From Tetramitus jugosus (Eukaryota; Protista; Heterolobosea): DNA of 64,000 nt. The stretch spans positions 1-64,000 of the forward strand of contig OW569353.1 of NCBI GenBank assembly GCA_937625935.1, in the 5' to 3' direction. The notes under the pieces are model-generated. The model did not search any database and had not been told where the DNA came from. It saw only the letters and a list, made by a program, of their open reading frames with translations. Below, in pieces: positions 1 through 20,150 of this stretch (within the stretch, counting starts at the first letter, position 1; each line of letters opens with the position of its first letter). The position numbers were made by a program, and so were the translations under genes.

Positions 1-782
1 CCAAACCCAAACCCAAACCCAAACCCAAACCCAAACCCAAACCCAAACCCAAACCCAAACCCAAACCCAAACCCAAACCCAAACCCAAACCCAAACCCAA
101 ACCCAAACCCAAACCCAAACCCAAACCCAAACCCAAACCCAAACCCAAACCCAAACCCAAACCCAAACCCAAACCCAAACCCAAACCCAAACCCAAACCC
201 AAACCCAAACCCAAACCCAAACCCAAACCCAAACCCAAACCCAAACCCAAACCCAAACCCAAACCCAAACCCAAACCCAAACCCAAACCCAAACCCAAAC
301 CCAAACCCAAACCCAAACCCAAACCCAAACCCAAACCCAAACCCAAACCCAAACCCAAACCCAAACCCAAACCCAAACCCAAACCCAAACCCAAACCCAA
401 ACCCAAACCCAAACCCAAACCCAAACCCAAACCCAAACCCAAACCCAAACCCAAACCCAAACCCAAACCCAAACCCAAACCCAAACCCAAACCCAAACCC
501 AAACCCAAACCCAAACCCAAACCCAAACCCAAACCCAAACCCAAACCCAAACCCAAACCCAAACCCAAACCCAAACCCAAACCCAAACCCAAACCCAAAC
601 CCAAACCCAAACCCAAACCCAAACCCAAACCCAAACCCAAACCCAAACCCAAACCCAAACCCAAACCCAAACCCAAACCCAAACCCAAACCCAAACCCAA
701 ACCCAAACCCAAACCCAAACCCAAACCCAAACCCAAACCCAAACCCAAACCCAAACCCAAACCCAAACCCAAACCCAAACCC
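1..782 (+). repeat. Telomere, (CCCAAA)n, about 130 copies; G-strand TTTGGG
   Basis: Perfect hexamer array from base 1, C-rich strand 5' as expected at a left chromosome end. Confidence 0.98.
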
Positions 783-784
783 TA

Positions 785-1288
785 GTGTGCATTTAGGCGG
801 AACCAGCTGGTTCCACTGAAAATGTCATATTATAGGCGGAACCAGATAGTTCCACTGACAAAGTCAAGTTTTAGGCGGAACCAGCTGGTTCCTCTGTAAA
901 GTCGAAAATTTAGGCGGAACCAGATAGTTCCTCTGAAAAAAAGCTCTTTTAGGCGGAACCAGCTGGTTCCGCTTGTTTGTCCAAATTTTAGGCGGAACCA
1001 GATAGTTCCTCTGTAAAAAAGCTTTTCTAGGCCGAAATGCCTGGTTCCGCCTATTTTTTCGACACTCATCAGTCAATAGCTCATAGAGATTTGGGTTTTC
1101 TGAGTTCAAAACCCAACTCCATATCACAGTTTGGGTGATAGTTCAGAATCTATAGTGAGTTGTTTCATACAAAGCTTAAGTTGAACATTCCAGACCATAA
1201 AGAATACAAAAACAACGTTTACAAAGTACGGTTGACTGTATTAAGGCATTCTTGGTTTGCCGATATGTGACAACCCAAACCCAAACCC
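785..1288 (+). mobile_element. Telomere-associated module 1 (array + ~230-bp tail + telomeric seed), truncated by the telomere
   Basis: Near-identical to 2098-2599; ends TATGTGACAACCCAAACCCAAACCC. The duplication is seen; mobility is inferred. Confidence 0.6.
794..1053. repeat. 39-bp palindromic tandem array, copy 1 (7 units)
   Basis: TAGGCGGAACCAG(CTG/ATA)GTTCC starts at 794, 833, 872, 911, 950, 989 and (degenerate) 1028; exact 39-bp period; CAGCTG and CAGATA cores alternate. Confidence 0.97.
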
Positions 1289-1735
1289 TACCATGAGAAA
1301 GCTCCACCAGAAAAAGTTCAGTCACTGGAGAAAAGCTCCTCAGTAATTTCAGGTGGAGCCATGACAATTTTTACCTGAGAAAAACAGGTGGAGCCAAAAA
1401 GCTCCACCAGAGAAAAGCTGCCTAAGAGGAGAAAGCTCCACCAATAAAATTAGGCAGAGCCAAAAAGCTCCACCAGAAAAAAGCTCAGTCACAGAAGAAA
1501 AATTCCTCAGTCATTTTAGGTGGAGCTTTTTAGCTCCACTGGAAACCCAACTTGAAACCCAACTGGATACATGTAATTCGCAGTATAGTTCAACAACAAC
1601 AACATATTTTTTATTGATAAGCTTAGTTTGAGGGTTTCAGAGCATGACAAACACGATGTGTACTATTTCATACAACGACGGGTTTGGGTTATACAATATT
1701 GGCTTGCCTTTATGTCACAACCCAAACCCAAACCC
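1289..1735 (+). mobile_element. Telomere-associated module 2 (diverged family member)
   Basis: Tail homologous to module 1 (AAACCCAACT...ATAGTTCA; AAGCTTA.TTGA...TCAGA.CAT; TTGGYTTGCC..TATGTSACAACCCAAACCCAAACCC). Confidence 0.55.
1295..1541. repeat. ~66-bp palindromic array (GGTGGAGC-N6-GCTCCACC)
   Basis: AGGTGGAGC-type units at 1351, 1386, 1452 and 1518; GCTCCAC at 1301, 1401, 1435, 1467 and 1533. Confidence 0.85.
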
Positions 1736-2043
1736 TACCCACCCCACCCTTCTTGTATTTGTGTTTGTACTCCTTCATCCAAGTTGAACCTTCATCAAGG
1801 AGTGTAAGTTCCTTCATCATCCTTTGTTACAAAATATTTCATGTCGTGTCATTAGCCTTCTCCTTGTCCCACGTTTCTGTCCGTAGTCCATCGTCAATTT
1901 CACTGCCGTGAATGTATTCATTAGACTTGTATTCGCCCACAAAGTATTACAATCAAGTCATGAAGGAGTTCAATCTTGTCGTTCAACCGATCTATCACAC
2001 AGCATCTTCCTTCAGAAGTTAGAAACTCCCTGACCTCAGTCCC

Positions 2044-2599
2044 AAGTTCCTCTGTCGATATCCTCTTAGGCGGAACCATCTAGTTCCTCTTAGAGATGTG
2101 TGCATTTAGGCGGAACCAGCTGGTTCCACTGACAAAGTCATTATAGGCGGAACCAGATAGTTCCTCTGACAAAGTAAAGTGTTAGGCGGAACCAGCTGGT
2201 TCCTCTGTAAAGTTGAAAATTTAGGCGGAACCAGATAGTTCCTCTGAAAAAAAGCTTTTTTAGGCGGAACCAGCTGGTTCCGCTTGTGAGTCCAAATTTT
2301 AGGCGGAACCAGATAGTTCCTCTGTAAAAAAGCTTTTCTAGGCCGAAATGCCTGGTTCCGCCTATTTTTTCGACACTCATCAGTCAATAGCTCATAGAGA
2401 TTTGGGTTTTCTGAGTTCAAAACCCAACTCCATATCACAGTTTGGGGGATAGTTCAGAATCTATAGTGAGTTTTTCTATACAAAGATTAAGTTGAACATT
2501 TCAGACCATAACGAATACAAAAACAACTTTTACAACGTACGGTTGACTGTATTCAGCCAGTCTTGGTTTGCCGATATGTGACAACCCAAACCCAAACCC
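2044..2599 (+). mobile_element. Telomere-associated module 3 (longer copy of module 1)
   Basis: Direct duplicate of 785-1288 ending in the same telomeric seed; true 5' boundary uncertain. Confidence 0.6.
2066..2364. repeat. 39-bp palindromic tandem array, copy 2 (8 units)
   Basis: Units at 2066, 2107, 2144, 2183, 2222, 2261, 2300 and 2339; same unit order as copy 1 plus one extra unit at the 5' side. Confidence 0.97.
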
Positions 2600-3053
2600 A
2601 CCATCTTGTCCTGCGAAAGGCACTCAAAATGTGAAGTAGCAATCTGATTTTTACAGAGTCGCAACAACAACAGTTGCAACAGATGAAGCACACCCGATTG
2701 TTTTATCTGTCCTATGAATCTCAATCAGAGCCATTGCATCTCCGTTCAATTCGAACTCATGATCATAAGAATGGTTGTATCAATAAAAAAAATCACAAAT
2801 TACAGACCATTTGTTCGATTCATTGATTTGATTGATTCGTTTGTTTTTCATTGTTTTTATGCGATGTTTTTGTCAAACCCGGCTGGAACCCGGATTGCTT
2901 GTTCTGAAACTACATGTGTGTTTCACATTGTGGAAGATTCTTAAATTCTTCAAATGGAATGAAGAAAAAGATAGTAATCATCTGATACCGGAGTGCAGAA
3001 GAAGTGTGGTATAATAAGGGCTGTTGCTTACGTAACAACCCAAACCCAAACCC
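2600..3053 (+). mobile_element. Telomere-associated module 4 (no array)
   Basis: Ends AAGGGCTGTTGCTTACGTAACAACCCAAACCCAAACCC; AACCC doublet at 2876. Confidence 0.45.
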
Positions 3054-3789
3054 TCGCCATGACCATATGACCATTGCTGGCCCTCCTCATGACCCTTGCT
3101 AACTCTCGTCTTGACCTTATGACCATTGCTAAGACCTTCAAGTTAGCTCTACTATGTTCCTATGTTCATCCTTTTTGCATGGCGAGGGTACCTGGCCTCG
3201 TTCATTGTTCTTTGTCTCTAATTGCTTCAGCGATGACAGTAACACGTACGGAACAATGAAGGAGGACACTCTACATACGTTCCAAGTAATAATCTCTCTT
3301 CGTGTTGGATATCGCCTTGTTGACAACACTTTCTTTTCTTCGTGCGTCAAAAAAATGAAAAAGCGGCCTGTGTAATCGTGATTACACAAACAGTCATTTA
3401 TTCATCTGAATTTTTTTATGAAAAAAATTCGACAAAGTCCAAGATACGGCTCATTTGTAGGCCTTCATTGTCTTTTTGAATGTGTAGATCACTTTCCAAG
3501 TAGAACCACTGTCGACGCCCTATTGCAGGTCTGAGTATTGTGGGGGGATTACTGGCTTGACGAAAGGTCTGGCAGTTCGTTCCAGATAGTAATTTTCTTG
3601 ACTCAAAGAAGTCTGCTACCTTCACAAGACCCAAAATCTTTGTGATCCGATATTCTTCACACTTGGTGCGTTGTTACCTGCTGTAAAACTTTTAGCGCCT
3701 GCCTGTCAATTGTCAACTTTCAAAAAAAACTTTTTTTGAAAAAAAAACAACTCACATTTTGTTCCACACAAACATCTCCAACAAGGCTC

Positions 3790-5160
3790 ATGATTCCACT
3801 TGCTTCCCTTGGTGAAGATTGGGACAATATCCAAGATTTGAATATTAGATTTGTTGTGCAGAAAGTACTACTTCCTCATCAGTTGGTTAACTCAGAGGCA
3901 ATGAGAGGTTGTATAGGCATTAAGTCAGCTCACGATAATGCAAAATTGTTGAAAACCTTGTGTGATGATGATAATTCTGCATTACGACCAAAACTCAAGG
4001 AACTAATTTCTGAGTTGGGAGACAAAGTTAAGCAAGCTGAAGATGAAGTACATAACAATAACCAACAAAGTATTAACGAGCAAGCGGAACGCTCTAACTA
4101 TGAAAATTCGGACTACAACCTGGACAATTATAATAGTGATGGAGATGACAATAGAGAAGAAGAGCATGATGGAAATTATTCATTGTATAACTCAGATAGA
4201 TCATCTGATGATAGCAATATTGGTGGTGCAGATGGGTATTCGTGTGATGATAATGATCTTGATGGTCCCGACCAATATGATACGATGAACCCAGGCCAGG
4301 AGGAAGCGCATTTTGAGGAGATGGATGAAGTTTTACAAGAAAGAATGGAAGAATATTCTACTCATAACGACATTATAAATCTCGCTGAAGATTTGGAGGA
4401 ACTTCCTGTATATGCAATATACAATCGGGTAAATGCTATTGTTGAGAAACAAAAGAAATTCGATAAGGCAATGCAACTACAAAAGAGTAATGATCGTGAA
4501 GTTCTTCATTTTGTTGAGGATTCTGATTTACTCTGTAAGCTGTTGGATATGAACTTGGAACTAGAGACAGAGGAGAAAAGAAAAAAAACAGAGAAGAAAA
4601 GAAAAGAAACATTGAGGGCACTTTATCTATCAGCTACAGAGACTTGTACAGAACGGCTGACTCAGCAACCTGGTGCAAACATGGAAGATGTTCTATGCTC
4701 TTTACGACCTATTTACAGCCTTGTTGCTAACTTGTCTGTTGCATTTACTCTATACATTTATACTATTACAGAATGTGATAAAAAAACCTCCTTTTGGGAT
4801 GAAAAAATTGTTTACATTGGAATGACCACTGACATGTGGTTCAGACATAAAGGTGGTCATGTTGCTTCATCCAAGCTGCTCGACCCACAATATGCCAATT
4901 ATCATAAGAAGGTCTATTTATGTACCTGTTGTGTTGGTAATGTACCTGCAGAGTGGCTTAAATTCTCAGACGCAGAAGCGTTCGTTCTAATTGGTGAACA
5001 ATTCTTAATTAATTATTATCAACCAGAGTTGAATATTGAAGGTAAGAAGCAACCTGTTCTCAACAAGCGAGCCAAGGAGTTATACTCCAAAGTTTCAGCA
5101 GTTCATCTCAGCAGCGCTGATCGCATCAAAACTGTTGAACCTCCAGCCAGAGGTGCATAA
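3790..5160 (+). CDS. GIY-YIG endonuclease domain protein (acidic/coiled-coil N-terminus, C-terminal nuclease)
   Basis: LYIY...VYIGMTTDMWFRHKGGH...EQFLINYYQPELN gives the YIG, Arg, His, Glu and Asn motifs of GIY-YIG; intact intronless ORF; first ATG at 3790. Confidence 0.8.
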   Translation: MIPLASLGEDWDNIQDLNIRFVVQKVLLPHQLVNSEAMRGCIGIKSAHDNAKLLKTLCDDDNSALRPKLKELISELGDKVKQAEDEVHNNNQQSINEQAERSNYENSDYNLDNYNSDGDDNREEEHDGNYSLYNSDRSSDDSNIGGADGYSCDDNDLDGPDQYDTMNPGQEEAHFEEMDEVLQERMEEYSTHNDIINLAEDLEELPVYAIYNRVNAIVEKQKKFDKAMQLQKSNDREVLHFVEDSDLLCKLLDMNLELETEEKRKKTEKKRKETLRALYLSATETCTERLTQQPGANMEDVLCSLRPIYSLVANLSVAFTLYIYTITECDKKTSFWDEKIVYIGMTTDMWFRHKGGHVASSKLLDPQYANYHKKVYLCTCCVGNVPAEWLKFSDAEAFVLIGEQFLINYYQPELNIEGKKQPVLNKRAKELYSKVSAVHLSSADRIKTVEPPARGA

Positions 5161-5503
5161 TTCCTGAGTCCATTGGTACTTCGGAAAGAGATTCTTAGTA
5201 TAGTTGGTGTTGAGAGTTTTGTGGTGTGGTTTTTTCTGCTCCTCTGAACCCTGACAAGTTCACCTGAGTCGTATAAAAGAGTTCTCTCGGTCGAGGTTTT
5301 TCTTTGTCGCGAATTGCTGCTTCAGAGGATGGATCATTGAATAAATATTGTTAACCGTATGATAGATTGCACTTCATTGACTTTTTACTGTTGGTGATAG
5401 CAACGGAACAATGTACAGACCAAGTACAGTCGCACTGTTTCTGTCGTAATTTTGTGTTTTAGGGGCTGTTTTAAAAGGTGCGACTCACACAACTGTGTCT
5501 CAT

Positions 5504-6271
5504 TCATTTGATCTGGACGTATGCCTTTACCGTCTTTTTGAACGTGTCGAGATCGTAGATCGCTTTCCAAGCATAACCACTCCTGAGCAGTCGGCGCCCT
5601 ACTTCGAGTTGTTCGGGAGTAGGTTTGTTTGGATGTATTTTGAACTCGATGAATAGAGCACCAAACCGTTTGTTCTTCTTCAGAATGACGTAATCAGGGT
5701 AGCCTTTGAGTCTACCATTGCGCCTAGCCTTTTCTGTGCATGCCGCAATACCAATTCCAGCAATGTCAGCATTAACCACAATTCCAGGATAGGCTTTGCA
5801 CATGTGCGCATGAGCGTCGGACTGAAGCTGGTCCTCTTTGCCCATTTTCTTGGGATTGATACCTTTTATCTTCTTCTTTACTGGTTTCGACCCGTACATA
5901 AGTATGTGATTCAAGTCTTTCTCTTTCAGTTCAGACACAACCCTCTTTCTACTAACTGAAAAAGGGGACACAGCATCCTTGCGCATCCGGGTCATTTTCG
6001 CAGGCTTCTGTATGCCATTTTTCGGTTCCCTCTTCTTTGGATCCGGCTTCTTGGTTTCTCTGGTTTTGACTTTCGCGGTAATCTTGGATACCACTTCAGA
6101 CGATTTCCTAACTGCTTTCCTGGATGGAGACTGTGTTTCATTGACTTCTGTCACCATCTTGCGTTTTACCTCTATGATCTTCTCTGGCTTCTTGATACCA
6201 TTCTTAGGTGGTGTTTTGGCCGGTTTGGCTTTTGGTGTGGGCTTCTTCTCTGTTTTGACCGTTGTAATCAT
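5504..6271 (-). CDS. VRR-NUC family PD-(D/E)XK nuclease with Lys-rich N-terminus
   Basis: KEDQLQ...KGYPDYVIL...LFIEFK..NKPTPEQ...L...GY is the stand-alone VRR-NUC pattern. Confidence 0.85.
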   Translation of the reverse strand: MITTVKTEKKPTPKAKPAKTPPKNGIKKPEKIIEVKRKMVTEVNETQSPSRKAVRKSSEVVSKITAKVKTRETKKPDPKKREPKNGIQKPAKMTRMRKDAVSPFSVSRKRVVSELKEKDLNHILMYGSKPVKKKIKGINPKKMGKEDQLQSDAHAHMCKAYPGIVVNADIAGIGIAACTEKARRNGRLKGYPDYVILKKNKRFGALFIEFKIHPNKPTPEQLEVGRRLLRSGYAWKAIYDLDTFKKTVKAYVQIK

Positions 6272-6336
6272 GTTGTGTTTCTATTCCAGCTTCGAAGTGA
6301 ATATGTTGATTAGTAAGTGTTGTGTAACATTTGTGT

Positions 6337-6678
6337 TTATTCTCTGATTATGTGGTTGAGACATTCAGCATACTGGCGAATCTGTATGCATGACCGATCT
6401 AGTTCGGGTCTGAATGATATCAAGCCGTAGCGTGTCCGCTCTCCAGTTGTCTTAATTTCGAAGATACAGACCCATTTCAAAAATATCGCATTGGACTTGA
6501 GTGCCAACGCATACACTTTAACGTGTTGCGTCTCATGGACATGCTGGAGGACTTCAGCCTTCTCTGGTTCACCAGGTACTTTGGATGCGAAGAAGATGTT
6601 TCCATTGGGGTACATAGCCATACGGACTGATGTCTGTGCGAATGCATCAAGGTCCCATTTCCTGTTGCTCTGGTTCAT
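6337..6678 (-). CDS. Hypothetical protein (ORFan)
   Basis: ATG overlaps an upstream stop (ATGA, 6675-6678); co-oriented with neighbours; no recognised motif. Confidence 0.45.
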   Translation of the reverse strand: MNQSNRKWDLDAFAQTSVRMAMYPNGNIFFASKVPGEPEKAEVLQHVHETQHVKVYALALKSNAIFLKWVCIFEIKTTGERTRYGLISFRPELDRSCIQIRQYAECLNHIIRE

Positions 6679-8798
6679 TTGGGTGGTTTTGTTTCTGGGC
6701 TCTGTGAACAGAATTCTTGTTTAAATAATTCCCGGACGTCGGGCTTGAGCATGTTCAGTGTAGATTATCTAGGATGCGCTTGGGCTCATACACAACAGCT
6801 TCTGTTGCATGTGTTAGTTCGTGCGCAATCTGAAACCCTAACAGAGCAAATTGGCTGGTTCTGTCGTACAGCGTGCTGAACATGGGTGTGCGTAGGATGC
6901 CGGGTGGAATGGTGACTGAGTGACTTTCTGGTTGGTACCACGCATTGGTGCTGGTTGACTCATCGTATGTAATGTCAGTAGAAACAGTTCGGCCGTTTAA
7001 CATCAATCCACCATCAGAGTCTAGCCACGACGGCCGGAAACGCATGTACACTCTGTCAGTGATTGCTGTTACAATGTTGAGTCCAAAATTAACGGATGAT
7101 ACATCCATGTTGTTCTCTGCCTCAAGTAACAGTTGGGGACCGTTTTCACCGTATGTATCTGTTGTCAACTTGCCAAGAGAACACTCGCCGACCGACACAC
7201 GAAGGCTGTCGAGTTGGGTCAAGAGTTTGTCACGAGTATGTTTGTTTGTTGAGCACCATAGATCGATTTTCACCTTTGTCATTGATGAGAGATTTTCGCG
7301 TACCTCCCAGAAGAATCATATCTCTGTACGTGTGACGAATCTCGTTGGCGATGTATGTTGCTTGTTTCTGACGTTCTGATGATTCAGCATCCATCTCTAC
7401 GAACGCATTGCAGTATGACAGAGGAAAAGTGTGTTGTACGGTGCGAGCACACATATCAACTAACGATCCAGGTTCTTGTGCAATTCGGGCGGTTGCCTGT
7501 TGTACGAGCTGTGCACTCTGGATGAAAATAGAGTCTGACGTTGTGTGTTTATCTATCACGAGTGGAGAGACACCTCCGTGAGACATCACACTACTGCTTA
7601 TATCTGGTACAGCACGCAAAACATGTTCGTACATACACACCATGAGGTACGACTTCCACGTACTCACTTCCATGTGTGCGAGGGCTCGGTCCAAATTGAG
7701 CATATGTTGATTGGAAGCCACGAAAACATTATCAATGTTCGTGGATGTCAACTTTGGGCGGACTCCTGCCTCTGGAAACATCAAGCTTTCTGGAGCAGAG
7801 AGTTGGTTTCTTCCATTTCCGTCCACATAGTTCACCTTGTCAAGACTGTGCAGAAAATGGCGCACTTCATAGGCGTCACAGAGCATGTTAATGATGTCGA
7901 CCATGTGGTTTTGATTTTCAATGCCTATATGGAAGGCATATGATGCAATAAAGGTGGATATATCGCTGTGAGATGGTCTTCCAGGTCTAATGACCAGAGT
8001 GGTGTCAGACGTCTCGTTCCTGTACTCAAAAGAGTGCATCTCTACTCCTATGCCTCTGTACGCCATGTGAAACAATGTGTCAACAACACCCTGTTTATCC
8101 TTCACCAAATTGATCATTCTCTCTATTCCTGTCACAAAGTCGAGCAGAGGTTTCCAACGAATGACTTCTGCGAGATGTAGCCGCCACTTTTTGTGAAATT
8201 GGGACGCACTGCGTAGTGTTGTGATTTGTGTGCCTGGTGATGCTGATAGAGCTTTGTAGTGCGTCACACATGACGTGAGCAGCTTGTGCATGTTATTGTG
8301 AGTATTGTACTTGGCGGTATTTTCTGCGATTGGCTTAGAGCTACTGAACTTGGTGATACGACCGCTCTCCAGAAACGAGTGGAGGCGCGAGATATCATGT
8401 GCATTCTCGCTCATTGTTGTCACTATGAAGCGATTGAATGGTTGCTTCCATCCGCTGCACGCATGCTCGTAAAAGCTGCTGCAAGGATTGATTTTCTTGT
8501 CCAAGAGGGTTTCACTGGCTGTGCTTGGGTAGAAGAACCGATGAGTGCTCTCCGGGTGGTTGTCGTCTTGTTCTTGTTCGACTTCCCTGATCAGCCCATC
8601 AATTAGAGGCATGCGTTGTGTGGTTAGCTTGTTCCATTTCACAGTTTGAGAAGCACGTGGGAGATCTTTGTGTCGTAGTACAAGATCCCAGACAAAGAAT
8701 AGGACTGATAGAAGCAAAAAAGTCCCACCAGACGCAAGCAGAGCGAACGCCACGATGGTACTTGTTCTTGCACAAGCATAAAAACGCACAGAGACCAT
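6675..8798 (-). pseudogene. M13 (neprilysin/ECE) zinc metallopeptidase, frameshifted
   Basis: N-terminal TM anchor; INPCSSFYEHACSGW; NAWYQPESHSVTIPPGILRTPMF; IAHELTH. Split over ORFs 7230-8798 and 6755-7282; downstream ENxAD motif not seen. Confidence 0.85.
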
Positions 8799-9079
8799 GA
8801 TTCTCGGTTAGTAACTATCTAGTTGTGTTTCCTATTTACAAAGTGGTTCTTGAATGTTAAACGCAACGCAATATGGATTCCCTATTTAACGTCGTCCTCT
8901 GGTTCCCCGGTGTTTCCGTAAAAGTTGTCATAGTTGATGTCCGTGTTCTTGCGTCGTCTTGGTGACTCTTCCTCCGGAGCAGAAAATACCATATTTGTTA
9001 TAATAGAGATCCTGTAGTTCCAGATTATTAGGACCTCGTCATATTACTCCTAGTTTGTTGATATTCAACAACAAACAAA

Positions 9080-10960
9080 ATGATAGGTCGCTTGTTCAAG
9101 TACACAGGAGATATGCTGCTCGTGCGCCGCAATCCTCTTAAATTCCCTGAGGTGACGGTGGTTGGAACGTCTTCTTTGACGATCTGCGCTTTGTCTTCGA
9201 TCTTATGGATATGCTTCCGCTGCATGAGTTGTATCAACTCAAGCAGATCTCTCGTTGGTTCAACCGCTGTGTGTTCATTTATCTACACTCTGAGCGCATG
9301 AATCGTCGCAGAGCACTGCACGAACACATCGGGGCAATTGACGTAATGCTGATGCCTGGGCGTGATAAACATACCTCAGTTGGAGCTGATGCATTCGTAC
9401 TCAGAGCCCTCATTGGAACTCAGACAACCCATTTAACACTTGAAGAAGGATGTTGCAGTAGTCAGGTTCAGAGAGATTTGTGTGTACCACGTGATATGTG
9501 TGTCTTTGTGAATGGGAAGCAGAATTCGTGCATTACAGATTCTGACTTGTTCCCTGATGTCAGCCAAACATACAAGTATTTTGTTCTCATGAAGGCCGGT
9601 GGTTGGAGAGAACGCTCTCGAAAATCAAAAACACGTTACTTTTACTCTGGTGACCAGATGGTGAACACGGAGACCAAACGATTCGTGGTGCTTGCTGATG
9701 AGAGAGCACGTATTGCCAATCTCATCACACTCAACAGAGGCACTCACAAGACCACTGGCCTGTGTTACGTGGGCATTTTTGGCCAGATTATTGAACCACC
9801 GAACGTCAGGGACGGTACCGTCCTTGTGGCACAGGATCAAAATACGCCACTGATGTTCCTCATCCGGACACACGGTACCGTCAAAAAACTGAGCCTGGAA
9901 AAGTGTGTTGCTGACTTGTCTGTTCGATCCTTCATCGGCTATCGTATGCGTGAAGTGAGAGGGTCTTCGCTTGAGACCATCCAACTCACTCAATTTGGAC
10001 ACGGACTTCGTGAACTTGATCTCTCCAACACAACTCTCAATAACACTGACCGTTCCATTCACATCTGGAGGAAGTATGCCTGTCCGGTGTGAATGGAATC
10101 GACGATATGCATGTGCGCATGATATTTAAGATGCTGGTTCTTCTGGAGAAGCTCGATGTTAGCCGCTGCTCTGGCGTTACAGCAAAATTGTTCCTCCGGC
10201 GGAGGATGAACACCTACGAACTTGTACAGGATCCATTGGCAAGCTCAGATACAGTTAGATCCGTTTTTGAATGCAACTACAGACGAGCTCTGGCTTACCA
10301 AAGTCCATGGGCCAAGGGAGAGTGTTCAGATGCCACGAATCTGCGTCGCTTCTTTGCTAACAAATCTCTCTCATCTGGGTGGCTAGAAGGTAGAGGATTC
10401 TTCCAGAAGTTAGTTTGGGTTCCCCTCATCTCACCAGCCTATACCTTTCCGGATCTCTGTGTAGATCGCTGTTTCCAATTCTGAATTCATGCAACAAACT
10501 GAACATTGTACACTTGGACAATCCAACTTACTCGTGGGTTTTGAACAATGCACATGTGAAGACAGTATGTATGTATGCTCCACACCTCGAGGTGTTGAAC
10601 CTGGCTGGTTGTACTGGATTGAATTTGAGTGCTGTGTACTACATTTCCCAATACGCGAAACATCTGAGACATCTAGATCTGAGCAACAATCCAAACATGA
10701 CATCGTCAGTCATTTCCATTCTGATGACTGGAGAAGAACACAGGCCATACAAACTCAAAGAGATGTGTGCAAGAGCGAACGCTATCGCTCATATATCTGA
10801 CAACCAAACAGAAGAAAAAGGTGCCATCCCGGAGAATCCACTGCTCAGACTAAGACACCTCAATCTGATTCTCTTGACAGGATGTTCTGAAGTCAACAAG
10901 AACGAACTCGGTATTGTTGCCAGTTTCGACATGTACAAGCACATCTCGGTTGTGGTTTAA
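9080..10960 (+). pseudogene. F-box / cysteine-containing LRR protein, several frameshifts
   Basis: F-box-like DLMDMLPLHELYQLKQISRWF; LRRs LRELDLSN, LEKLDVSRCSGVT, LEVLNLAGCTGL and LRHLDLSNN lie in three successive frames. Confidence 0.75.
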
Positions 10961-10961
10961 T

Positions 10962-11213
10962 TTATTTGGATGGTGTAAAACAGAACACAATGAAGATGAT
11001 TAACATGGTGCAGATCGAGCTCGTATAGAAACACCAGATGTGACGCTCCCCTAAGTACGCAACGGTTAGCTCTCTGAGACCGGCGTACGAGTCATGTTGC
11101 ATGCTTGAGACAGTAATGTCCATCTGCTCGTGTAACTTGTAGTCGGATTCTTCTGGATGTTGCATTTTGTGGGTTTGTTGTGGTACTTGAACAATAATGC
11201 CTGTTTCGCTCAA
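10962..11213 (-). CDS. Small hypothetical protein with C-terminal TM helix
   Basis: Fills the gap between neighbours; hydrophobic C-terminus; start codon uncertain. Confidence 0.4.
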   Translation of the reverse strand: MSETGIIVQVPQQTHKMQHPEESDYKLHEQMDITVSSMQHDSYAGLRELTVAYLGERHIWCFYTSSICTMLIIFIVFCFTPSK

Positions 11214-11262
11214 TAAAGATCACTCTCTAACGCTCTACGTTTGAACGAGAAACACAAGCAAC

Positions 11263-11889
11263 ATGACAGAAGAAGCCCGTAGCTTATATGATGCATATTG
11301 CCTCCGACTTTCACGAGATCCTGTATGTGTCGGTCGTCTAGTCAGTCTTTGGTTCCAATACCCTTTATTCGTGACATGCGAACCGTGTGTAACGAGACCG
11401 GAGCTTACAAGGGAGATGTCCAAGTTTCGGCTTTGTGGCACGGACGTGCTCTCTATATCTGACGGTAGAAGTGATATATTTGCACACTTCCTCGAATACG
11501 TGCTGTTCGGAACAGTCGACCTGAGTGTAGACAGTGACGGAGTATATCTTGACGAAGATCGAGTTCTCTTTGTTCCTATCACTGAGATGCAGCTGTATGA
11601 TTCGCCAGAGAGCAATGACTTAAGTGAAGTAATAGCAATCTACAAGCAGTGGATTGAGCGAAATTCGGAGTTCTTCGAAAACCGAGCTCACGTCATTTAC
11701 CAGTGTTCGTATCGAGAGTACAAGGGAAACAGGTGCGTCAATGGCAGACCGCGAATGTTACCCGTGGAGTTAGTGTGGGCTGTGTGTGTCTCTTTCCTTG
11801 TGTTCATTCAACGAGAAGTGCGCATAGCGTGGGGATTCTACTGGTTACAATCATCTAACCTATCGTTGTTCCAGAGAAAAAGAGTTTAG
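11263..11889 (+). CDS. Hypothetical protein (ORFan)
   Basis: 208-aa ATG ORF, globular composition, no recognised family. Confidence 0.55.
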   Translation: MTEEARSLYDAYCLRLSRDPVCVGRLVSLWFQYPLFVTCEPCVTRPELTREMSKFRLCGTDVLSISDGRSDIFAHFLEYVLFGTVDLSVDSDGVYLDEDRVLFVPITEMQLYDSPESNDLSEVIAIYKQWIERNSEFFENRAHVIYQCSYREYKGNRCVNGRPRMLPVELVWAVCVSFLVFIQREVRIAWGFYWLQSSNLSLFQRKRV

Positions 11890-11891
11890 TG

Positions 11892-12287
11892 ATGCACATT
11901 GTGGACAAGGTGATGGAAGAGAAGAGGATGATGCAGGTGAATGCGTTGTCCTCTGACGAGTACCGGGACTTACAAATTCTTCAGGACGAATGTATCACTG
12001 AAGTGTACAACGGAATCGTTTCCTCGCTGACCACGGCGTTCATGCGCCGCTCTTCTGTTCGGGACTTGGATCCCAACTACGCCACAAGATTGGCGATCAT
12101 GCGCACGGTGACGTGTAAACTAGAAGACTTGGCTATGGAACACACGAACTCGATTTCGCTGACAAAACCTCAGGCAAATCACGTGTCTCAAGAGTGGACA
12201 AGGGTACAAAGAACAGTAATGCAGCAAAAAGACAGGGCTATCTCCTTTATGGATGATAAGTACGGCATCTTCAGCCGGTTTTGGTGA
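11892..12287 (+). CDS. Hypothetical helical protein (ORFan)
   Basis: ATG 2 bp after the previous stop (TAG TG ATG). Confidence 0.55.
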   Translation: MHIVDKVMEEKRMMQVNALSSDEYRDLQILQDECITEVYNGIVSSLTTAFMRRSSVRDLDPNYATRLAIMRTVTCKLEDLAMEHTNSISLTKPQANHVSQEWTRVQRTVMQQKDRAISFMDDKYGIFSRFW

Positions 12288-12388
12288 TTTAAACTGAAGC
12301 CATTCTCAAAAGTTCCGCTGTCATTTCATTAAGATCGTCCAAGAACTTGCACATGGTACGATTGTTATTCAAATCTTTACTGGTGGGC

Positions 12389-12802
12389 TCACCAGTAAGG
12401 GCAATAAGTGACACATCGTTCTTTTACGCCGTGTTGAGTAATCCATACCAATCGACACTCAAGTTCTCTTTCCTTCATGGTCTGTATTTCGACGAGAGAA
12501 GAGAATGAATCATCAATGTAGTACAGACCTTCGAGGTATTGAATCACCAACAGGATTGAGACCTGGTGTTGAAGATTGGCAAGCAAGTTTTGGGTGAAGA
12601 ATTGACTCCTGAGTTTGAAAACAAAAGTGGCACTCTGCTTGGTGAGCAAATCTTGATACAAATTCCTTGATTTTCTGAAATTCTCCTGTTGAGAACTCAC
12701 CCGAGGCCCAACAGAACTTGAGATGTAAAATATTCCCTTGCAACAATTGCGCCAAAAATTCCATTTTTCAGATTTTCCTGAGTTTGTTCCTGTCAGCAAC
12801 AA
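12389..12802 (-). pseudogene. Probable degraded ORF of unknown family
   Basis: Overlapping ORF fragments in two frames filling the gap in the compact cluster. Confidence 0.3.
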
Positions 12803-12835
12803 AAGTTCTAAAAAAACAACATAAAAGATCTCAGG

Positions 12836-13518
12836 ATGTCCATTCTTTCCAAAAAATGGTTTTGGTACCCTTTGGCCATAATCTTACTTGCAGTAATTTT
12901 CAAAGAGCAGTTGGAAACATGCATGCGGGTATGCCCCCAGAACAACTACGAGTACCAAGCAACAGCCACAAAGGAACAAGAAAGAGAAGTGTTTGTCAAA
13001 TCTCAACAGCTGCAAGAAGAAACAGAGGAAGAACGAACTCATCGAGAGTACAAAGATATTGCCCGCCAATTGCGAAAGAAGAGGCGAGAGAGGCAGCGGT
13101 CCGAAGAAGCTCGGATTTTACCCAGAAGGACAATGTTTGCCTGTGTGGGCGACATCGTGCGAAGTGTCACGCATTTGCTGCCTTGCTGTCAGACAACCGC
13201 TTGTCAAGGCAAGACGTGACACTGAACTTATCGAGCGCTCAGCTGTGATTCACTCACAACGAAACCAGCAAACAAGTCAACGCTTTGCGTGATTTGGAAA
13301 CAAAGAACCGTCAAATCAGAATATTCTTCACCCATAAAGTAAAGTGTTTTAACAATGAACTGGCCAGACGTCTACGTGCCGAATGCACCCAAAAACATTT
13401 CCAACAACCCATGTTTGATTTCGAGTACCACAAGAAGATGACGGGGATCGCGAGCCCAGTCCAAAGTTTTGAATCGCCAACAGAGATTGATTCCCTGGTT
13501 TGGGGAGTGAAGGATTGA
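12836..13518 (+). pseudogene. Membrane-anchored coiled-coil protein, frameshifted
   Basis: N-terminal TM WFWYPLAIILLAVIF, charged helix, continuation in ORFs 12993-13292 and 13285-13518. Confidence 0.45.
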
Positions 13519-14699
13519 TTCCAAGCTCTGAAGCACAAGATAGTGATTTCAAGGTGTTGAAAATAAGAAAGTTGGCGAAGCCTGGCGCTTGGAGAAAGAG
13601 CTGAAAACGCCAAGCCAGGCTTTGCAATTTTCAGAGTTGGTGATCGAGTGACAATCGAGTGTCAAAGATTGTGCTTTGCAACCAACAAGGCGTCACACCA
13701 AGGATGGATTGTGCTTTGCAATCTCGGGTCTACAACAACGAGCAGGATTGATTTTGCAATCAAGGATGGATTTAACAATGGTTTCGAGGCGAAGCCAAGC
13801 ACTTGGGACAGAAACGAGGGACACTCTGATGATCAACCACTCGAAGGTACAACCACCGGTTTGTCACAAGACAATCGCAATCCTGTCAGGTTTCGAAGCA
13901 CTGAACAATTCAACCCTGTAAGGTTTTGTGATCACGTGAGGTTTGGATCATCAACAAGGTTTGGATCATTTATTTAGGAGGTGTTGTTCTGATAAAGAAA
14001 TCAATTGTTATTGAACTTCCTATCAAAGAGGTTGGTGTAACCCGCAGGTGTAAGGATCGGTAGATACCTGATAGACAGGCTGCGGAACTGTTGTAGATTT
14101 ATTTGGCGGAGAAATCTCGGCCACACAACGATTTTTTTGCGATACAAACAAAACATGAAGATTAAAGCAGTATCGTCACCAACCGCCGCCTCCTCAGGTC
14201 CTTACTAGTAATGATATTGTTCTCCATTTGTCCTATGTGTTGGTTGAAGAAACAATAATAGATGTATACACAAGTTTTTATTCGTTTGTTTTGTGGCTTT
14301 GTTTGTTGGGCTTTGTTGATGAGTGTGTGAAAGCACCTTCTTATACCACACGTTCATGTTTCTCTCATTTGACCTCATTTTGTTCACACGCTCACTTTTC
14401 TCATATCTGACCACTTTTTGGCCACACGTTTCTCTTATGTAACTTTTCAAGTTTTCCCTACAATTTTTCATACGAACTGTGTGAATAGGGTGTGTGATAT
14501 AGAAGATTCATGACAAAAACTCACATACCGCATTCACTTGCTTTCGATGATAGAGTGGCAGTGTCACAGTCATCACAAGATTAAGGGTTGGATTCTGATA
14601 TAACAAGCAGAAAGAAAGTGAGTGTCAATCAACAACATTTCGATGAATAAAGACATATCCAATGATTTTTGTTTGTTGTTCCTTTTAGTTTTGTTGAAG

Positions 14700-14885
14700 C
14701 GGGTGGATTGACAACCCTGCTAAAACCCGGTTAGGAGCTGAACTGACAAATCATGAACAATGGACCAAATGAATGCTTAAACCGAGATCTAGATGAAAAA
14801 CAACAAAGTATCCCCATCGAGAGATTGAGTTATTGTTTGCTCCATAGTCAAAAGGGCCATGGCTTACGTGATAACCCAAACCCCA
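14700..14885 (+). repeat. Fifth copy of the module terminus with telomeric seed
   Basis: 14852-14883 matches 3016-3047 at 27/32 ungapped positions; AACCCTGCTAAAACCCGG (14713) matches AACCCGGCTGGAACCCGG (2876) at near-identical spacing from the seed. Confidence 0.75.
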
Positions 14886-15016
14886 CCCGCGAGGGTGATG
14901 GCTTCCATTCTTTGGTTTGGGTTTAAGAGTGCAGTGCTCATGTGCTTTTCGCTCTCCTTATCCTTATTTTTTTTATTTGAGGTAGCCAACAGCCAAGCTG
15001 GCCACAAGCGTAAAAC

Positions 15017-15739
15017 TCAATTCAGAGTTGGCCAAACGTATGAAAATTTTATTGAGGCAAGAGTTGTTCTCTCTTCCTGGCGATTCATTGGCTTGCGATG
15101 ACCATGGAATGACCAAACCATCAAGAGGAGCGACAACCCTAACCAAGTAAGTGAACATGGGATGGCAGCAAAGCGAATTAGCTTGAGTATCAAAGGCAGA
15201 GTATTCGTGACTGGCAGACCAAACACTGACATAAATGCAAACACAAAAATCACCAGTCATCCAGAGCAGTACCAACAATCAGCCACAAGAAGAAGATGAT
15301 CATTCGAACCACAGAGTTGCTCAAGCCAGCAGATGAAGGAAACCATATGCAGTAGACTACCCAGAATGGTTTCTCAACAACAAACACAAGCAGAGATGCG
15401 AAGGCAGTAGCCATCAAAGACCTCGACACCGCTTCACTTGCTGTTTTTACAGCATTTGATAAGAATTGTAGGTTTAACGTCGGCGGAGTCGATGATTTTT
15501 GCAGAGTAGTCATCAAATCCAGCACTCTTCTGTTGAGAAGAAGAAGATGTAGATGACTTCAAATTGACACTGGCGCGATTCGGGTTCACATCCTCTGTAA
15601 AATCAAAGAATGAAGTCGCATTGGACGATGTTCTTGCTCTAGTGACTTCAATCTTTGCTGGATTGTGAATCAATTTCTGAATGGGTTGTGGCTCTGGCAA
15701 ATCAGAATCAAAGTTCAGGGTTGTTCTGGATGATGGCAA
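15017..15739 (-). pseudogene. Possible degraded multi-pass membrane protein
   Basis: Chain of short hydrophobic ORFs in different frames. Confidence 0.3.
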
Positions 15740-16193
15740 TGTTCAAGTACGTTGCAAAAAGTGTCCATCCCAGATAGGGCACCATCAGCTTAACTGAATT
15801 CACCGAATTCTTTGCGAACGAGAACATGGTCAAGATTATGAAGGAATTAAGAGCGAGAACTACAGCCAGGGCCTTCTTCGGGTTCTTTTGCTTGAAGAAC
15901 ACAGCTGACCAATAGAAGTTCAGGAAAAGTTGTGAAATGAAGAAAATCGTACCTGATGCAATGTTCTTCTTTGCCTTTTTCATCTGGCGGATCCACATGG
16001 CCAATGCTACACCCATCAACGAGTAAAGAATTGTCCATACAACCGGAAAAATCCAGCCAGGCGGGAACCATTTGTTCTTCTTGAGGACTTGAAACCATTC
16101 CTGTGATTCCTCTCTGGAGATGTAGAGCAAGGAGTACGCTGTGGATAACAACAACGGAGCTGCAGCTATGGCAATTTGATGTAGAGCGATCAT
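15708..16193 (-). CDS. tspO: TspO/MBR translocator protein
   Basis: WFQVLKKNKWFPPGWIFPVVWTILYSLMGVA, QLFLNFYWSAVFF and LMVPYLGWTLFATYLN are TspO motifs; likely start MIALHQ. Confidence 0.95.
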   Translation of the reverse strand: MIALHQIAIAAAPLLLSTAYSLLYISREESQEWFQVLKKNKWFPPGWIFPVVWTILYSLMGVALAMWIRQMKKAKKNIASGTIFFISQLFLNFYWSAVFFKQKNPKKALAVVLALNSFIILTMFSFAKNSVNSVKLMVPYLGWTLFATYLNIAIIQNNPEL

Positions 16194-16329
16194 GTTTGTT
16201 CTTTGCATCCGATTGATCGGAGATCTGGGACTAAATGATGATGCCTCCACCCGCAGCTGTTTTTAGAATTTTGTTGTAGACTGAGGAGAATTAACATGAC
16301 ATATGAGAATGAACAAACTGTGGATGAGA

Positions 16330-16801
16330 AAAAATGTTTCTCAAATAACAAGGCTCTGAGAGTCGGATCGCCCATCGTCATACTAAACACTTGCGCACAA
16401 TTCTCAGAGCAGTAGCAGATGGCATAAACTTCTCCACCCATGGATCGAATATCCTTCAAACAATCATTGACCTGTCTCAGATACAATGGACAATTGCCAC
16501 ACCAAGTTCCACGATAGAAGAAGAGAACAGTGAATTTGGAGAGAGGAGCAATGGTTTGCACCCATTTATCCCTCTTCTTCTTTCGTGCGAGTTTCAGTTT
16601 TTCATCCTTCTGCTTGCACCTCGTGCACTCACCATCTACAGTGGTAGAGTACTCTGGATGACCACAGTCAACATTCTTAATCAACTTGCAAGCATCCAAA
16701 GTTCCGAACAATATCGGTACAGCACTTCCCATGTCGTTGTTTATCACCTGTTGAATCTTGTCATGTTTCAATTGAAGTTCGACAATCTTGTTTCTCAACA
16801 T
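16330..16801 (-). pseudogene. Peroxiredoxin-like (AhpC/TSA, PRXL2-type) domain, C-terminally truncated
   Basis: TVLFFYRGTWCGNCPLYL...IRSMGGEVYAI; similarity lost afterwards. Confidence 0.65.
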
Positions 16802-17036
16802 GTCAACTGCTTCACTTTCAGTGGTACCTGCATCAAGAATGAGCCGATTAAGTTGGTTCTGGGCTTGAATGATCTCATCCTCAGTTTTAGTAGCTTTACA
16901 ACATTGTAGTACGAGGTGATAACTGGTTGTTCATGGTTATTTGGGGCATGTGTTTTGGTTTGTGTTGTGTGGCTATGCCAGTGTCATCTAACTTCAAAAC
17001 GCCCGTTATGTGATTTACGGGTAAATACAGGCCACA

Positions 17037-18124
17037 TGGAGCAGGCGAATCGAAGCAGCTCATCTTTTGCACCACTGATCATGTTTCATGACGCGAGTCA
17101 ACCACTCATCCAATTGCTGGGCAATGACTGGCAACAGTTGTCACAAAACTTGGATACCATTCGAAAGCTGACCATCACACCGGACGAGCAAGTGGCACTC
17201 AATAGTCAGCTGACCCAACTGGATCAAGTCAAGTCAGGGCAGCTCTTGGATTGTGAGCAAAAGAGTCAAAGCAGCTTGGCATCAGAAACGACCATTGCTC
17301 AATTGACAGACACTGTGCAGCAACTGTCTGAATCGACACGACAGCGGTCTGAGGCTGGACAACAATTGCACCAGGTTCGCCAACACTGAAAATTCAACTC
17401 TTGCTTTGCGCATCGAAGAGTTGGAGAGTCAGCTGTCCAAGTCAATGCCGAAGCTCAGCAAGTCAGGCTTGATGCAAGTCAACACTCGAGGCAACAACAA
17501 GAAACGATCGTGGTGCTTCAAGCCAGAATCGGTATCGCTGAACAGCAGTTGAGTCATAGCCAAGAAGCGCTTGCACAGGCACAGCGAGAAGCAGACCAAT
17601 GGAGGCTGCAATTGAATGAGGTCAAAAGCGAATTGACACAAGAGCGATCCAAGCAGGAGCGACATCAGACAGATCAGGAGCTCACCAGGCAATCGATGGA
17701 AGCATCCCTGAGCAACCAATGGACTGAGCACCAGAAAGAATTGTCTCAGTTGAGAGAACAGCAACAGCTTGACTTGGAGGCACTGCGCCAAGAGTTGACG
17801 GTTGTGCATCAACAACAAATCTCGAGTGAGTATAGTGCCACGAGGCAATGTCAATCCTTGTTGGAGCAAGCACAGGCAGACAAACAGTTGATGGAGCAAC
17901 GACTGAGCAGTGAACAAGCCAAGTTACTTGATGCCACCGATCTCATCACCCAACTCAAAAATAACATCTTGACTGGGACACAAGACACGGCAAGCCTCCA
18001 AATTCGACTCCAACTGGTAAGTAAACTTCACTTCAAGCAAGAGCAAACAACAAGTTTGGAGTATCAGCTTTCCTTGTTGAAACAGAGTGAGAAAAGGCCA
18101 GGGCAGAGAACACTCGCTCATTGA
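17037..18124 (+). pseudogene. Gln/Leu-rich coiled-coil protein, frameshifted
   Basis: Two consecutive heptad-rich ORFs (16916-17389 and 17510-18124) in different frames. Confidence 0.5.
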
Positions 18125-19869
18125 CTCCACTCGATCAGCTTGCCTTGCAGGTAGATCGCTTGATCCAAAGCCTGATGATCGAAAAAGAGTTTGTTGCAAG
18201 GTAAATACCCTGGAGTTGGTAAGAGTCGCTCCTGGACGAGGAAGAAGAAGATGCAATCCGTAGCTTGGCAAATGATAGAGAATAAGAAGATTTGTTGGCT
18301 GATGTTCCGTTTCCCGACATTAAGGAAGCAACTAATTTGGCATAAGCATCATTCTCAATTTAAGTAGCAAAGGATCAAGCATCGTATGTGTAGAGATGCA
18401 AACCCAACACCACGAATAAAACGAGCCAAACAACAAAGACAACCAACAACAATTGACGGAATTTCGTTGCTCGATTAATTCACACCCAGAATCAAAGAGT
18501 TGTCGGGAGTTCATGAAGGAGAGAAACCACGTCAAATGGAGTTGAGTAACAATTTGGTGGAATTAACAGTTCAATACTTATCTATGCTCAAAGATCGAAA
18601 TTGAAGTACTCGGCCTACAGAATAATGGATATGTTCGTGAATTAGATTCAACGACAGAGAGTCTATGTTTGTCGTCGCAAAGTCAAACGGAGGAGCAGTA
18701 GTCACTGTCCATCCGAATTGCTTGAAGTGTAATTGTGTTCTCTATCAACACAGCAGATTTTGCTCTTGTATGTGTGCTCTTTCTAAATTGAGGAAGGACT
18801 ACAGTCAAATACGAACCATGGTCAAAAAGAACAAATCAACGTTAAAAGCGCTACTCAGTGCTGGATGTCAGCGGATTCTGTGTCTCCAGTATATGATCAT
18901 ACCTTAGCCAATTGTGGAGACGCTGAGGTTTTGATAGCAAAAGTCAAGTCTGCAAAGAAGTGTATTACAAATTGTCTCGGATTATTGCTACCTATTCCTT
19001 GGAAACCTAACTTGCCACAAGTATTCCAATACAAACCGATGATGATTTCCAGGGCACAAAGAAGCCACCACGATATTGATTCGACATCAGAAGAAAGCTT
19101 GGAATGATGCAAAGCTGTATGTAGATTTCTTACAACATTCATTGCCAGATGAAATCGTTGAACCCAAAAGGAGAAAAGACTATAAGATTCTAGTTGTTCA
19201 TGACAACGTGTAGTTCCACTTTGCCACACAACTCAGTGATCTATGCAAGAAGGATTATGGTACCTCATTGTTTACCGAATGCTACGGCTCTATACCAACC
19301 ATTCGATGAAACTCTACCAAGTCTGTCTAATCATCCAAGTGTGCTTTTGTATACTCCAGAGAGATTCAATGTTCCAGTAATCCTACCTAGTTTCAACTTT
19401 GAACTAGGTATATTAGTGAGCGCTGTTGCCTGCTTGATCTCTTTGTTCCTTGATGATGGCTTCTTTACCTTCTATGTTCACCGCAGCACGAACTCCATTT
19501 CCACACTGATACCAGAGAACGCACTCCACTTTTGTCCCTGGTTCCAAGAAACCAATACCCGGTGCGAACCGCAGATGAAATTGTTGCGGACCCAAGCATG
19601 GGATATTGGCAGTCGCCGCGAACGAATTGATGTCTTTCCAAGCGATGATAGTGCAGTTACTGATTGTTGTGCTGATTCTCGGGCGTATGAACACACTCTG
19701 GTTGATCGAAATTGGTAAGAAAATCAGCCCAATGCAAAAAATACAGCATAGGATTCCAATGTTGGCACAGGTCCTTATCATCTGCATCATGACGCTCCTG
19801 TGTCCGATACTTTTGTGTGTGTTGATGGTCAGAATTTCTCAACGTCCATCCCCTCTGGATTTCTAGTGC

Positions 19870-19995
19870 GTTGTTGTTGCCAGCTAAATGTGAAAAAGCT
19901 TGATCTGTGATTTGAATACGACCACTGATATTGAGTGAGTGAATACCAGTCAAGTGTCGAAATGCATTGTCTGTGATCTGAGTGCAACTCATATC
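19870..19995 (-). pseudogene. LRR fragment
   Basis: CTQITDNAFRHLTGIHSLNISGRIQITDQAFSHLAG, about 1.5 repeats, no complete gene. Confidence 0.65.
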
Positions 19996-20150
19996 GTCTT
20001 ATCTATCACTTTGTTTCAGGATATCCCGATAGAGCTTGATGTCGATTTGACAATAAGCCGATAAGATTTGCTCGAAGCTGTTACTAATTATGTGAAGCAT
20101 GTGCCTCTGATATTTACTAGACAAAGAATCTTGTTGGACATGCAATTATG

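What the first reader, a model, noticed from the sequence alone, without database searches (positions are those of the whole stretch)
794..1541. Two different arrays share one dyad through compensatory substitutions
Seen: the 39-bp array dyad is GGCGGAAC-CAGCTG-GTTCCGC and the 66-bp array dyad is GGTGGAGC-CAAAAA-GCTCCACC (also GGTGGAGC-TTTTTA-GCTCCACT). C>T is mirrored by G>A, A>G by T>C, and the 6-nt spacer length is kept (consensus GGYGGARC-N6-GYTCCRC). Both arrays sit at the same place in homologous modules. Inference: symmetry itself is being conserved, either as an RNA/ssDNA hairpin or as a dimeric protein site whose specificity has diverged between subfamilies.
Basis: partly seen in the sequence, partly recalled or inferred. 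Interest (0 to 1): 0.75.

Follow-up and report, generated by a model that had tools for sequence, protein, structure and literature searches.

The report
Mirror-site arrays in telomere-docked modules
Next to a single-celled eukaryote's telomere, two related repeat arrays carry versions of one mirror-symmetric DNA motif that is kept as a sequence and likely binds a two-part protein rather than folding into a hairpin; only one of the two claimed compensating changes holds up.

Summary
The window is a eukaryotic chromosome end ((CCCAAA)n, 1-782). Behind it lie stacked segments ("modules"), each ending in a 16-17-nt telomere tract. At the C>T/G>A pair the left arm is C in 15 of 15 A units while the right arm is T 8, G 4, A 3, so it does not covary. 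The inner A:T>G:C change is real (13 of 13 distinct units paired) but is one event, later amplified. Both arrays end in a unit with an inverted spacer, a template-switch signature that can mirror a mutation in one step. The site is still constrained: modules 1 and 3 differ at 10 of 100 linker but 1 of 168 dyad positions, and unpaired site positions are largely conserved too. Best reading: a likely dimer-binding site array in Y'/STR-like telomere-docked modules (0.5). No RT, ribozyme or Rfam match was found; no outside homologue; the scan had not reported this on other DNA.

The parts
1..782 (+). Terminal telomere, (CCCAAA)n on + (TTTGGG towards the end)
   Evidence: 130 perfect copies
783..1288 (+). 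Module 1 (A family), truncated at its telomere side and capped by the telomere
   Evidence: 95% identical to module 3 over 510 bp, and shorter than it
793..1026 (+). A array: six forward 39-bp units, half-site TAGGCGGAAC, spacer CAGCTG/CAGATA alternating, right arm GTTCC(A/T/G)C
1027..1066 (-). Terminal A unit in inverted orientation (a full left half-site plus linker reads on the - strand)
   Evidence: inverted repeat I23
1272..1288 (+). 17-nt internal telomere tract closing module 1, joined to the B array at a 2-nt overlap
   Evidence: B copies elsewhere continue with other letters before the same point (table 5c)
1289..1735 (+). Module 2 (B family), truncated inside its array
1289..1543 (+). 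B array: about 33-bp monomers in a 66-bp higher order; full dyads at 1387-1408, 1453-1474 (imperfect) and 1519-1540 (spacer inverted); centre-deleted units at 1327 and 1428
1719..1735 (+). 17-nt internal telomere tract closing module 2
1736..2599 (+). Module 3 (A family), probably near full length: telomere-variant letters, a 300-bp region with three CCTTCATC motifs, A array 2045-2365 (8 units), spacer, tract 2583-2599
2600..3053 (+). Module 4: second end family, no dyad array, tract 3037-3053
3054..14888 (+). Module 5: 11.8-kb segment whose last 250 bp are homologous to module 4 (z=6.9); carries virus-like genes; degenerate tract 14873-14888; 38-bp non-dyad repeat at 14346-14428
3790..5160 (+). 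ORF with a C-terminal GIY-YIG-like motif set (seen by eye, unconfirmed)
   Evidence: no Pfam hit; phrog_16890 E=3e-9, phrog_1111 endonuclease E=0.012; fold failed, pLDDT 33
5504..6271 (-). VRR-NUC-family nuclease with a Lys-rich N terminus
   Evidence: 137 relatives; 6 of 11 relatives scanned pass the PF08774 cut-off; PHROG Holliday-junction resolvase E=1.6e-7

Best explanation
The two arrays are homologous tandem copies of one mirror-symmetric site (half-site GGYGGARC, 6-bp spacer) that is conserved as a base sequence and likely binds a dimeric protein on double-stranded DNA, inside non-coding modules that likely dock onto shortened chromosome ends through a 17-nt telomere tract. Shown: module anatomy, homology of arrays and spacers, constraint on the whole 24-bp site, one mirrored arm change, one inverted terminal unit per array. 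Inferred: (1) the A:T/G:C change arose once in a founder monomer, most simply by polymerase template switching between the arms, and was then amplified; (2) the constraint comes from a sequence-specific subtelomeric factor (chromatin, replication or end-protection), as for Tbf1 sites in yeast STRs or SPE2 sites in Plasmodium; (3) modules spread between ends by recombination or break-induced copying primed at the tract, then erode from the telomere side and are healed. The binding protein is not identified, and whether A and B bind one tolerant factor or two is open.
For: Module 1 vs 3: 10 of 100 linker, 12 of 236 unique and 1 of 168 dyad positions differ (p=0.0003 and 0.010), and the one dyad change is uncompensated, at the very position claimed to covary. 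Among six regular units 12 of 12 paired and 9 of 13 unpaired site positions are invariant against 1 of 14 linker positions. Unit-specific linkers stay in register between modules 1 and 3, so wholesale homogenisation does not explain it. In 148 X1 and 12 X6 contigs laid on the B array, none of 17 listed variant places falls in the arms of the three full dyads. Typical A units fold weakly as DNA (-2.7 to -4.7 kcal/mol). Spacers CAGATA and CAAAAA differ by 2 directly, while terminal spacers match only when inverted (A 5 direct vs 2 inverted; B 5 vs 1); template switching is reported to cause arm homogenisation and spacer inversion (PMC8604942). By analogy only: 5 of 5 phage ORFs tested that contain tandem GGAAC-N6-GTTCC dyads are lambda O-type initiators. 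Four of four intact junctions have the same 17-nt tract with different neighbours.
Against: No binding data and no candidate protein. All three full B dyads form 8-9-bp hairpins on the - strand, the imperfect one through two G-U pairs, and two are followed by T-rich tails; 3 of 15 A units are also rescued by G-U on that strand. The covariation score exceeds 499 of 500 shuffles, though that control ignores relatedness. The units are not independent, so the p values are optimistic. Spacer inversions in yeast were seen only for arms longer than 9 bp (PMC8604942), and these arms are 5-9 bp. Modules 4 and 5 end the same way without the dyad, so it is not needed for docking. The variant table omits changes near contig ends and copies under 80% alike; loose ends show B copies with other left flanks.
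Confidence: 0.5

Rival explanations
1. The dyads act as hairpins in a telomere-directed (G-strand, TERRA-like) RNA or in single-stranded DNA exposed at resected ends, and pairing is what selection keeps.
For: One clean A-U to G-C change in 13 of 13 distinct units; B dyads pair fully on the - strand with G-U rescue, -13.5 to -17.4 kcal/mol as RNA; the arrays as a whole fold far below shuffles (z -5 to -13), although any dyad array does.
Against: 8 of 15 A units have a mismatch at the outer pair on both strands; the loop and unpaired flank are largely conserved as well; centre-deleted B units keep only 4 bp; no Rfam match near a gathering score among 10 weak hits; no RNA run was laid.
Confidence: 0.2
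2. The dyads have no function: short inverted repeats repair themselves by template switching, and arrays expand by slippage and unequal exchange, so symmetry and a mirrored change are by-products.
For: [quoted passage not shown]
Against: Self-repair would make the outer arms match, yet they stay mismatched in most A units, and it does not explain fixed unpaired letters.
Confidence: 0.17
3. The modules are non-autonomous telomeric retroelements (MoTeR2- or Athena/Terminon-like 3' ends) and the arrays are their internal promoter or RT-loading sites.
For: Fixed 3' end with a reverse-complement telomere tract, variable 5' truncation healed by telomere, head-to-tail chain: the geometry described for Terminons (PMC6431247) and MoTeRs (PMC7367193).
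Against: No RT in 81 ORF translations from 783-26000 scanned against Pfam; no hammerhead core on the + strand in the first 16 kb; no shared 3' fold among five ends (-2.3 kcal/mol). An RT elsewhere in the genome could not be looked for.
Confidence: 0.13

Closest known systems
Yeast Y'/X-STR subtelomere elements (PMC7374410, passages)
   Same: Tandem modules separated by short internal telomere tracts, mosaic by recombination, with small repeats that carry factor-binding sites (Tbf1).
   Different: Modules here are 0.45-0.86 kb and non-coding, come in several families stacked together, and carry hyphenated dyads with one inverted terminal unit; no helicase gene was found.
Pyricularia/Magnaporthe MoTeR2 and subtelomeric tandem repeats bounded by interstitial telomeres (PMC7367193, PMC8381367, passages)
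   Same: 5' ends towards the chromosome end, 3' ends on a short telomere tract, truncation healed at 1-7-nt seeds, identical tract lengths read as break-induced copying.
   Different: No RT-bearing partner is seen in the window; no sequence similarity was tested or is claimed.
Terminons / Athena endonuclease-deficient Penelope-like elements (PMC6431247 and 10.1101/2021.04.23.441226, passages)
   Same: 3'-terminal reverse-complement telomere repeats, head-to-tail truncated chains, accessory GIY-YIG-like genes in a long member.
   Different: No hammerhead ribozyme next to the tract, no RT, and genes of module 5 lie on both strands.
Leishmania LCTAS (PMC8621916, passages) and Plasmodium SPE2/PfSIP2 arrays (PMC7374410, passages)
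   Same: Telomere-adjacent conserved blocks in protists, proposed or shown to bind proteins.
   Different: Not described there as 6-bp-spaced dyads in two diverged families.
Lambda O-type origin iterons
   Same: Tandem hyphenated dyads with the same GGAAC-N6-GTTCC core lie inside 5 of 5 O-type initiator genes tested; dimer binding by O is recalled, not from a call.
   Different: Found by a pattern chosen to match; no blastn or tblastn similarity to the window; 22-24-bp period, inside a gene. An analogy, not a relative.

Membership tests
Covarying structured RNA/ssDNA hairpin family | Several independent compensatory changes in the stem | tested here: not met
   2 pairs with two-sided change vs 1.3 shuffled (194 of 500); one of them unpaired in 9 of 13 distinct units
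Covarying structured RNA/ssDNA hairpin family | Unpaired positions freer than paired ones | tested here: not met
   9 of 13 unpaired site positions invariant vs 1 of 14 linker positions
Covarying structured RNA/ssDNA hairpin family | Transcribed or single-stranded in vivo | not tested
Terminon/Athena PLE | 3' reverse-complement telomere repeats, 5' truncation, head-to-tail chain | tested here: met
Terminon/Athena PLE | Hammerhead ribozyme beside the 3' telomere repeats | tested here: not met
   No core on + strand; the only core-like hits (- strand 1072, 2383) lack stem III by my reading; no Rfam hammerhead
Terminon/Athena PLE or MoTeR | Reverse transcriptase in an autonomous member | tested here: inconclusive
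   None in the window's first 26 kb; rest of genome not held
Y'/STR-like subtelomeric modules | Modules bounded by short internal telomere tracts next to the terminal telomere | tested here: met
   five tracts, 1272-14888
Y'/STR-like subtelomeric modules | Many copies, mosaic between ends | tested here: inconclusive
   Many variant contigs, other neighbours behind the tract, and single-contig depths about 7-10 times that of the 2720-3039 contig in X2; depth is no copy number and chromosome positions are unknown
Y' proper | Helicase ORF and ARS | tested here: not met
   No helicase family; origin activity not testable
Dimeric protein site array (iteron/STR type) | Sequence-specific binding to the duplex | not testable with these tools
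   Only the conservation pattern was tested

The most novel reading that the evidence does not exclude
The modules are the ends of an undescribed RT-free, telomere-docking mobile element of protists whose long member (3054-14888) carries virus-like nucleases; the dyad arrays are iteron-like initiator sites, and the A and B families have split into two binding specificities, like plasmid incompatibility groups at eukaryotic chromosome ends.
Probability: 0.1. Interest if true: 0.78.

Novelty: new variant of a known kind. Interest (0 to 1): 0.36.

Why it matters
If the site binds a protein, it gives a ready probe for a subtelomeric factor in a protist lineage with no annotated near relative and an unusual TTTGGG telomere, and a natural pair of sites (GGAAC and GGAGC) to ask whether subtelomere repeats and their binder drift together. 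It also shows how one template-switch event plus array amplification can look like covariation. As a covarying hairpin, the finding does not stand.

Tried and rejected
Whole genome not held, so genomic copies could only be seen through contigs laid on the window. Module-end and A-dyad patterns: 0 hits in viral contigs and 0 in metagenome contigs. A joint A/B dyad pattern gave 21 metagenome loci, each a single match, none with blastn similarity or telomere tracts: chance. Two-unit dyad patterns gave 29 and 11 viral loci without similarity to the window. X16 and X17 had no contig on the B array, which is no proof of absence. Rfam: 10 weak hits, all far below gathering scores. Hammerhead-like core on the - strand at 1072 and 2383: wrong strand for Athena, no stem III, absent from module 2; rejected. 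Telomerase-RNA gene idea (tract as template): rejected, since copies are many, subtelomeric and share no fold. CATCTA/CATCTG as a flipped A spacer: ambiguous (2 direct, 2 inverted), not counted. No relatives for the GIY-YIG-like ORF or the ORF at 11263; no viral loci for the VRR-NUC, P0001 or the M13 peptidase; single-sequence fold of the GIY-YIG-like domain unusable; the ESM Atlas gave no answer, so the domain stays unconfirmed. Lineage not assigned: a host gene found only three unnamed relatives at 48-63%. Paper searches for TTTGGG subtelomeres in amoebae or protists gave 0 and 5 unrelated listings, and one search listed no description of these arrays; the Terminon and LCTAS primary papers were not held.

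Full report
Setting. The window begins with 130 perfect CCAAAC copies, a telomere. From about 20 kb on it holds ordinary eukaryotic genes read in the standard code. Near-identical DNA occurs in groundwater, soil and freshwater metagenomes (X4 and X6 were laid). The lineage was not assigned. No whole genome is held.

Anatomy. Five internal tracts of AACCCAAACCC type lie at 1272, 1719, 2583, 3037 and 14873, all in telomere orientation. The letters before each tract are conserved and those after it differ, so each tract closes a module. Four of four intact tracts are the same 17 nt. Modules 1 and 3 are 95% identical; module 2 is a diverged homologue (z=8.6 and 10.7); modules 4 and 5 share a second end family (z=6.9) and align to the first no better than chance in the spacer (z -0.9 to 1.3). 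Module 1 is a shortened module 3 capped by the telomere. Module 2 is cut inside its array: other B copies continue past that point, and the overlap with the tract is 2 nt (table 5c). Contigs of four runs show many variants, deletions and other neighbours behind the tract. In X2 single contigs have depth 235 on module 2 and 333 on module 3 against 33 at 2720-3039, which suggests many copies, though the tool warns that depth is no copy number.

Checking the dyads. The three quoted strings are present. The A string is 2 of 15 A units. Facing the left-arm C (15 of 15) the right arm has T in 8, G in 4 and A in 3 units; on the 13 distinct units of both arrays this pair is C-G 2, U-A 2, unpaired 9. 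The inner pair is A-U 10, G-C 3, never broken. Pairs with two-sided change number 2 against 1.3 in shuffles (194 of 500); the covariation score is 0.140 against 0.091 (1 of 500), but that control ignores relatedness and the three G-C rows are one family. So there is one real mirrored change. The B array has two perfect and one imperfect dyad; two further units have lost 3-4 bp of the centre, so spacer length is not strictly kept. A loose end in X6 shows an A-type outer base with the B-type inner base on a left arm, again uncoupling the two positions.

What is conserved. Between modules 1 and 3, 10 of 100 linker, 12 of 236 unique and 1 of 168 dyad positions differ (p=0.0003 and 0.010; 0.0008 if the 2-bp indel counts once). 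The single dyad change is uncompensated. Across the six regular units of module 1, 12 of 12 paired, 9 of 13 unpaired site positions and 1 of 14 linker positions are invariant. In 160 contigs laid on the B array none of the 17 listed variant places is in the arms of the three full dyads (changes near contig ends are not listed). This is the pattern of a sequence-specific site. Against it, the three B dyads fold fully on the - strand with G-U rescue, which keeps the hairpin rival alive.

How the mirrored change could arise. The forward spacers of A and B are homologous (CAGATA vs CAAAAA, 2 differences). The last unit of each array has its spacer inverted (A: 5 direct vs 2 inverted differences; B: 5 vs 1), and in A the linker is inverted as well. 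Template switching between short inverted repeats homogenises arms and inverts spacers (PMC8604942, abstract and passages; there inversions needed arms over 9 bp). One such event in a founder monomer followed by amplification accounts for the A:T/G:C difference without selection on pairing. The shared plan of several forward units plus one inverted unit may also be inherited and functional; I cannot tell these apart.

How the modules move. The geometry matches Y' elements separated by internal telomere tracts (PMC7374410, passages), MoTeRs and subtelomeric tandem repeats of Pyricularia (PMC7367193, PMC8381367, passages) and Terminons (PMC6431247 and 10.1101/2021.04.23.441226, passages). No RT was found in 81 ORF translations, no hammerhead core on the + strand and no shared 3' fold, so I favour recombination or break-induced copying primed at the tract; an RT elsewhere in the genome is untested. 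Modules 4 and 5 lack the dyad, so it is not the docking signal.

Neighbouring nucleases. The VRR-NUC call is supported through relatives; the GIY-YIG call rests on motifs seen by eye and weak PHROG hits. Both lie in module 5, a family without the dyad, and nothing ties them to it.

Outside comparisons. No homologue of the modules was found in viral or metagenome contigs. The bare core GGAAC-N6-GTTCC forms tandem arrays inside lambda O-type initiator genes (5 of 5 tested) and between genes of giant-virus bins. This is an analogy from a chosen pattern, not homology. Searches listed no description of these arrays. PMC8621916 (passages) gives LCTAS as a protist analogue; passages of PMC8311970 and PMC9498494 added nothing. 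The scan's notes held nothing for this genome or sequence; two fungal notes on palindrome arrays in chromosome-end units are unchecked parallels.

Verdict. Observation partly confirmed; interpretation partly supported. A real, constrained, two-family dyad array in telomere-docked modules of an uncharacterised protist, most likely a dimer-binding site (0.5); not a covarying hairpin on present evidence. New variant of a known kind; interest 0.36.

Noticed in passing
window 3054-14888: An 11.8-kb segment bounded by telomere tracts carries a virus-like, intron-poor gene set on both strands (GIY-YIG-like, VRR-NUC, an M13 peptidase and an LRR gene each in several frames, orphans) and shares its end with the 450-bp module 4; possibly a long cargo-bearing member or a captured viral fragment.
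   Followed up: partly
window 14338-14490: A 38-bp repeat with CCACACG motifs lies about 450 bp before the module 5 tract, a similar distance to the A and B arrays in their modules, but has no dyad.
   Followed up: partly
window 1680-1729: Module 2 has an inverted telomere motif 28 nt before its tract that could fold back and mask it; not conserved in modules 1 and 3.
   Followed up: partly
window 1092-1121, 1544-1563, 2876-2899, 14712-14730: All module families have one or two AAACCC-like motifs about 160-190 bp before the tract end; in the A family they form a 9-bp-arm hairpin.
   Followed up: no
window 3058-3135 and 1772-1818: A 22-bp minisatellite directly behind the module 4 tract, and three CCTTCATC motifs at about 20-bp spacing in the outer part of module 3.
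   Followed up: no
L023, L025, L028, L029, L030, L039, L041, L049 near 5000 (L039 near 5): Intergenic arrays of GGGAAC-N6-GTTCCC dyads, 34-55-bp period, spacer in both orientations, six of the eight loci in giant-virus bins; two lie beside actin genes. Not homologous to the window.
   Followed up: partly
L027, L033, L034, L042, L044 near 5000: Tandem GGAAC-N6-GTTCC iteron-like arrays inside phage O-type replication genes.
   Followed up: yes
window 14889-20100: A zone of short or broken ORFs (TspO, AhpC-like, coiled-coil fragments) between module 5 and the first ordinary host gene, with an inverted telomere-like motif at 14913.
   Followed up: no
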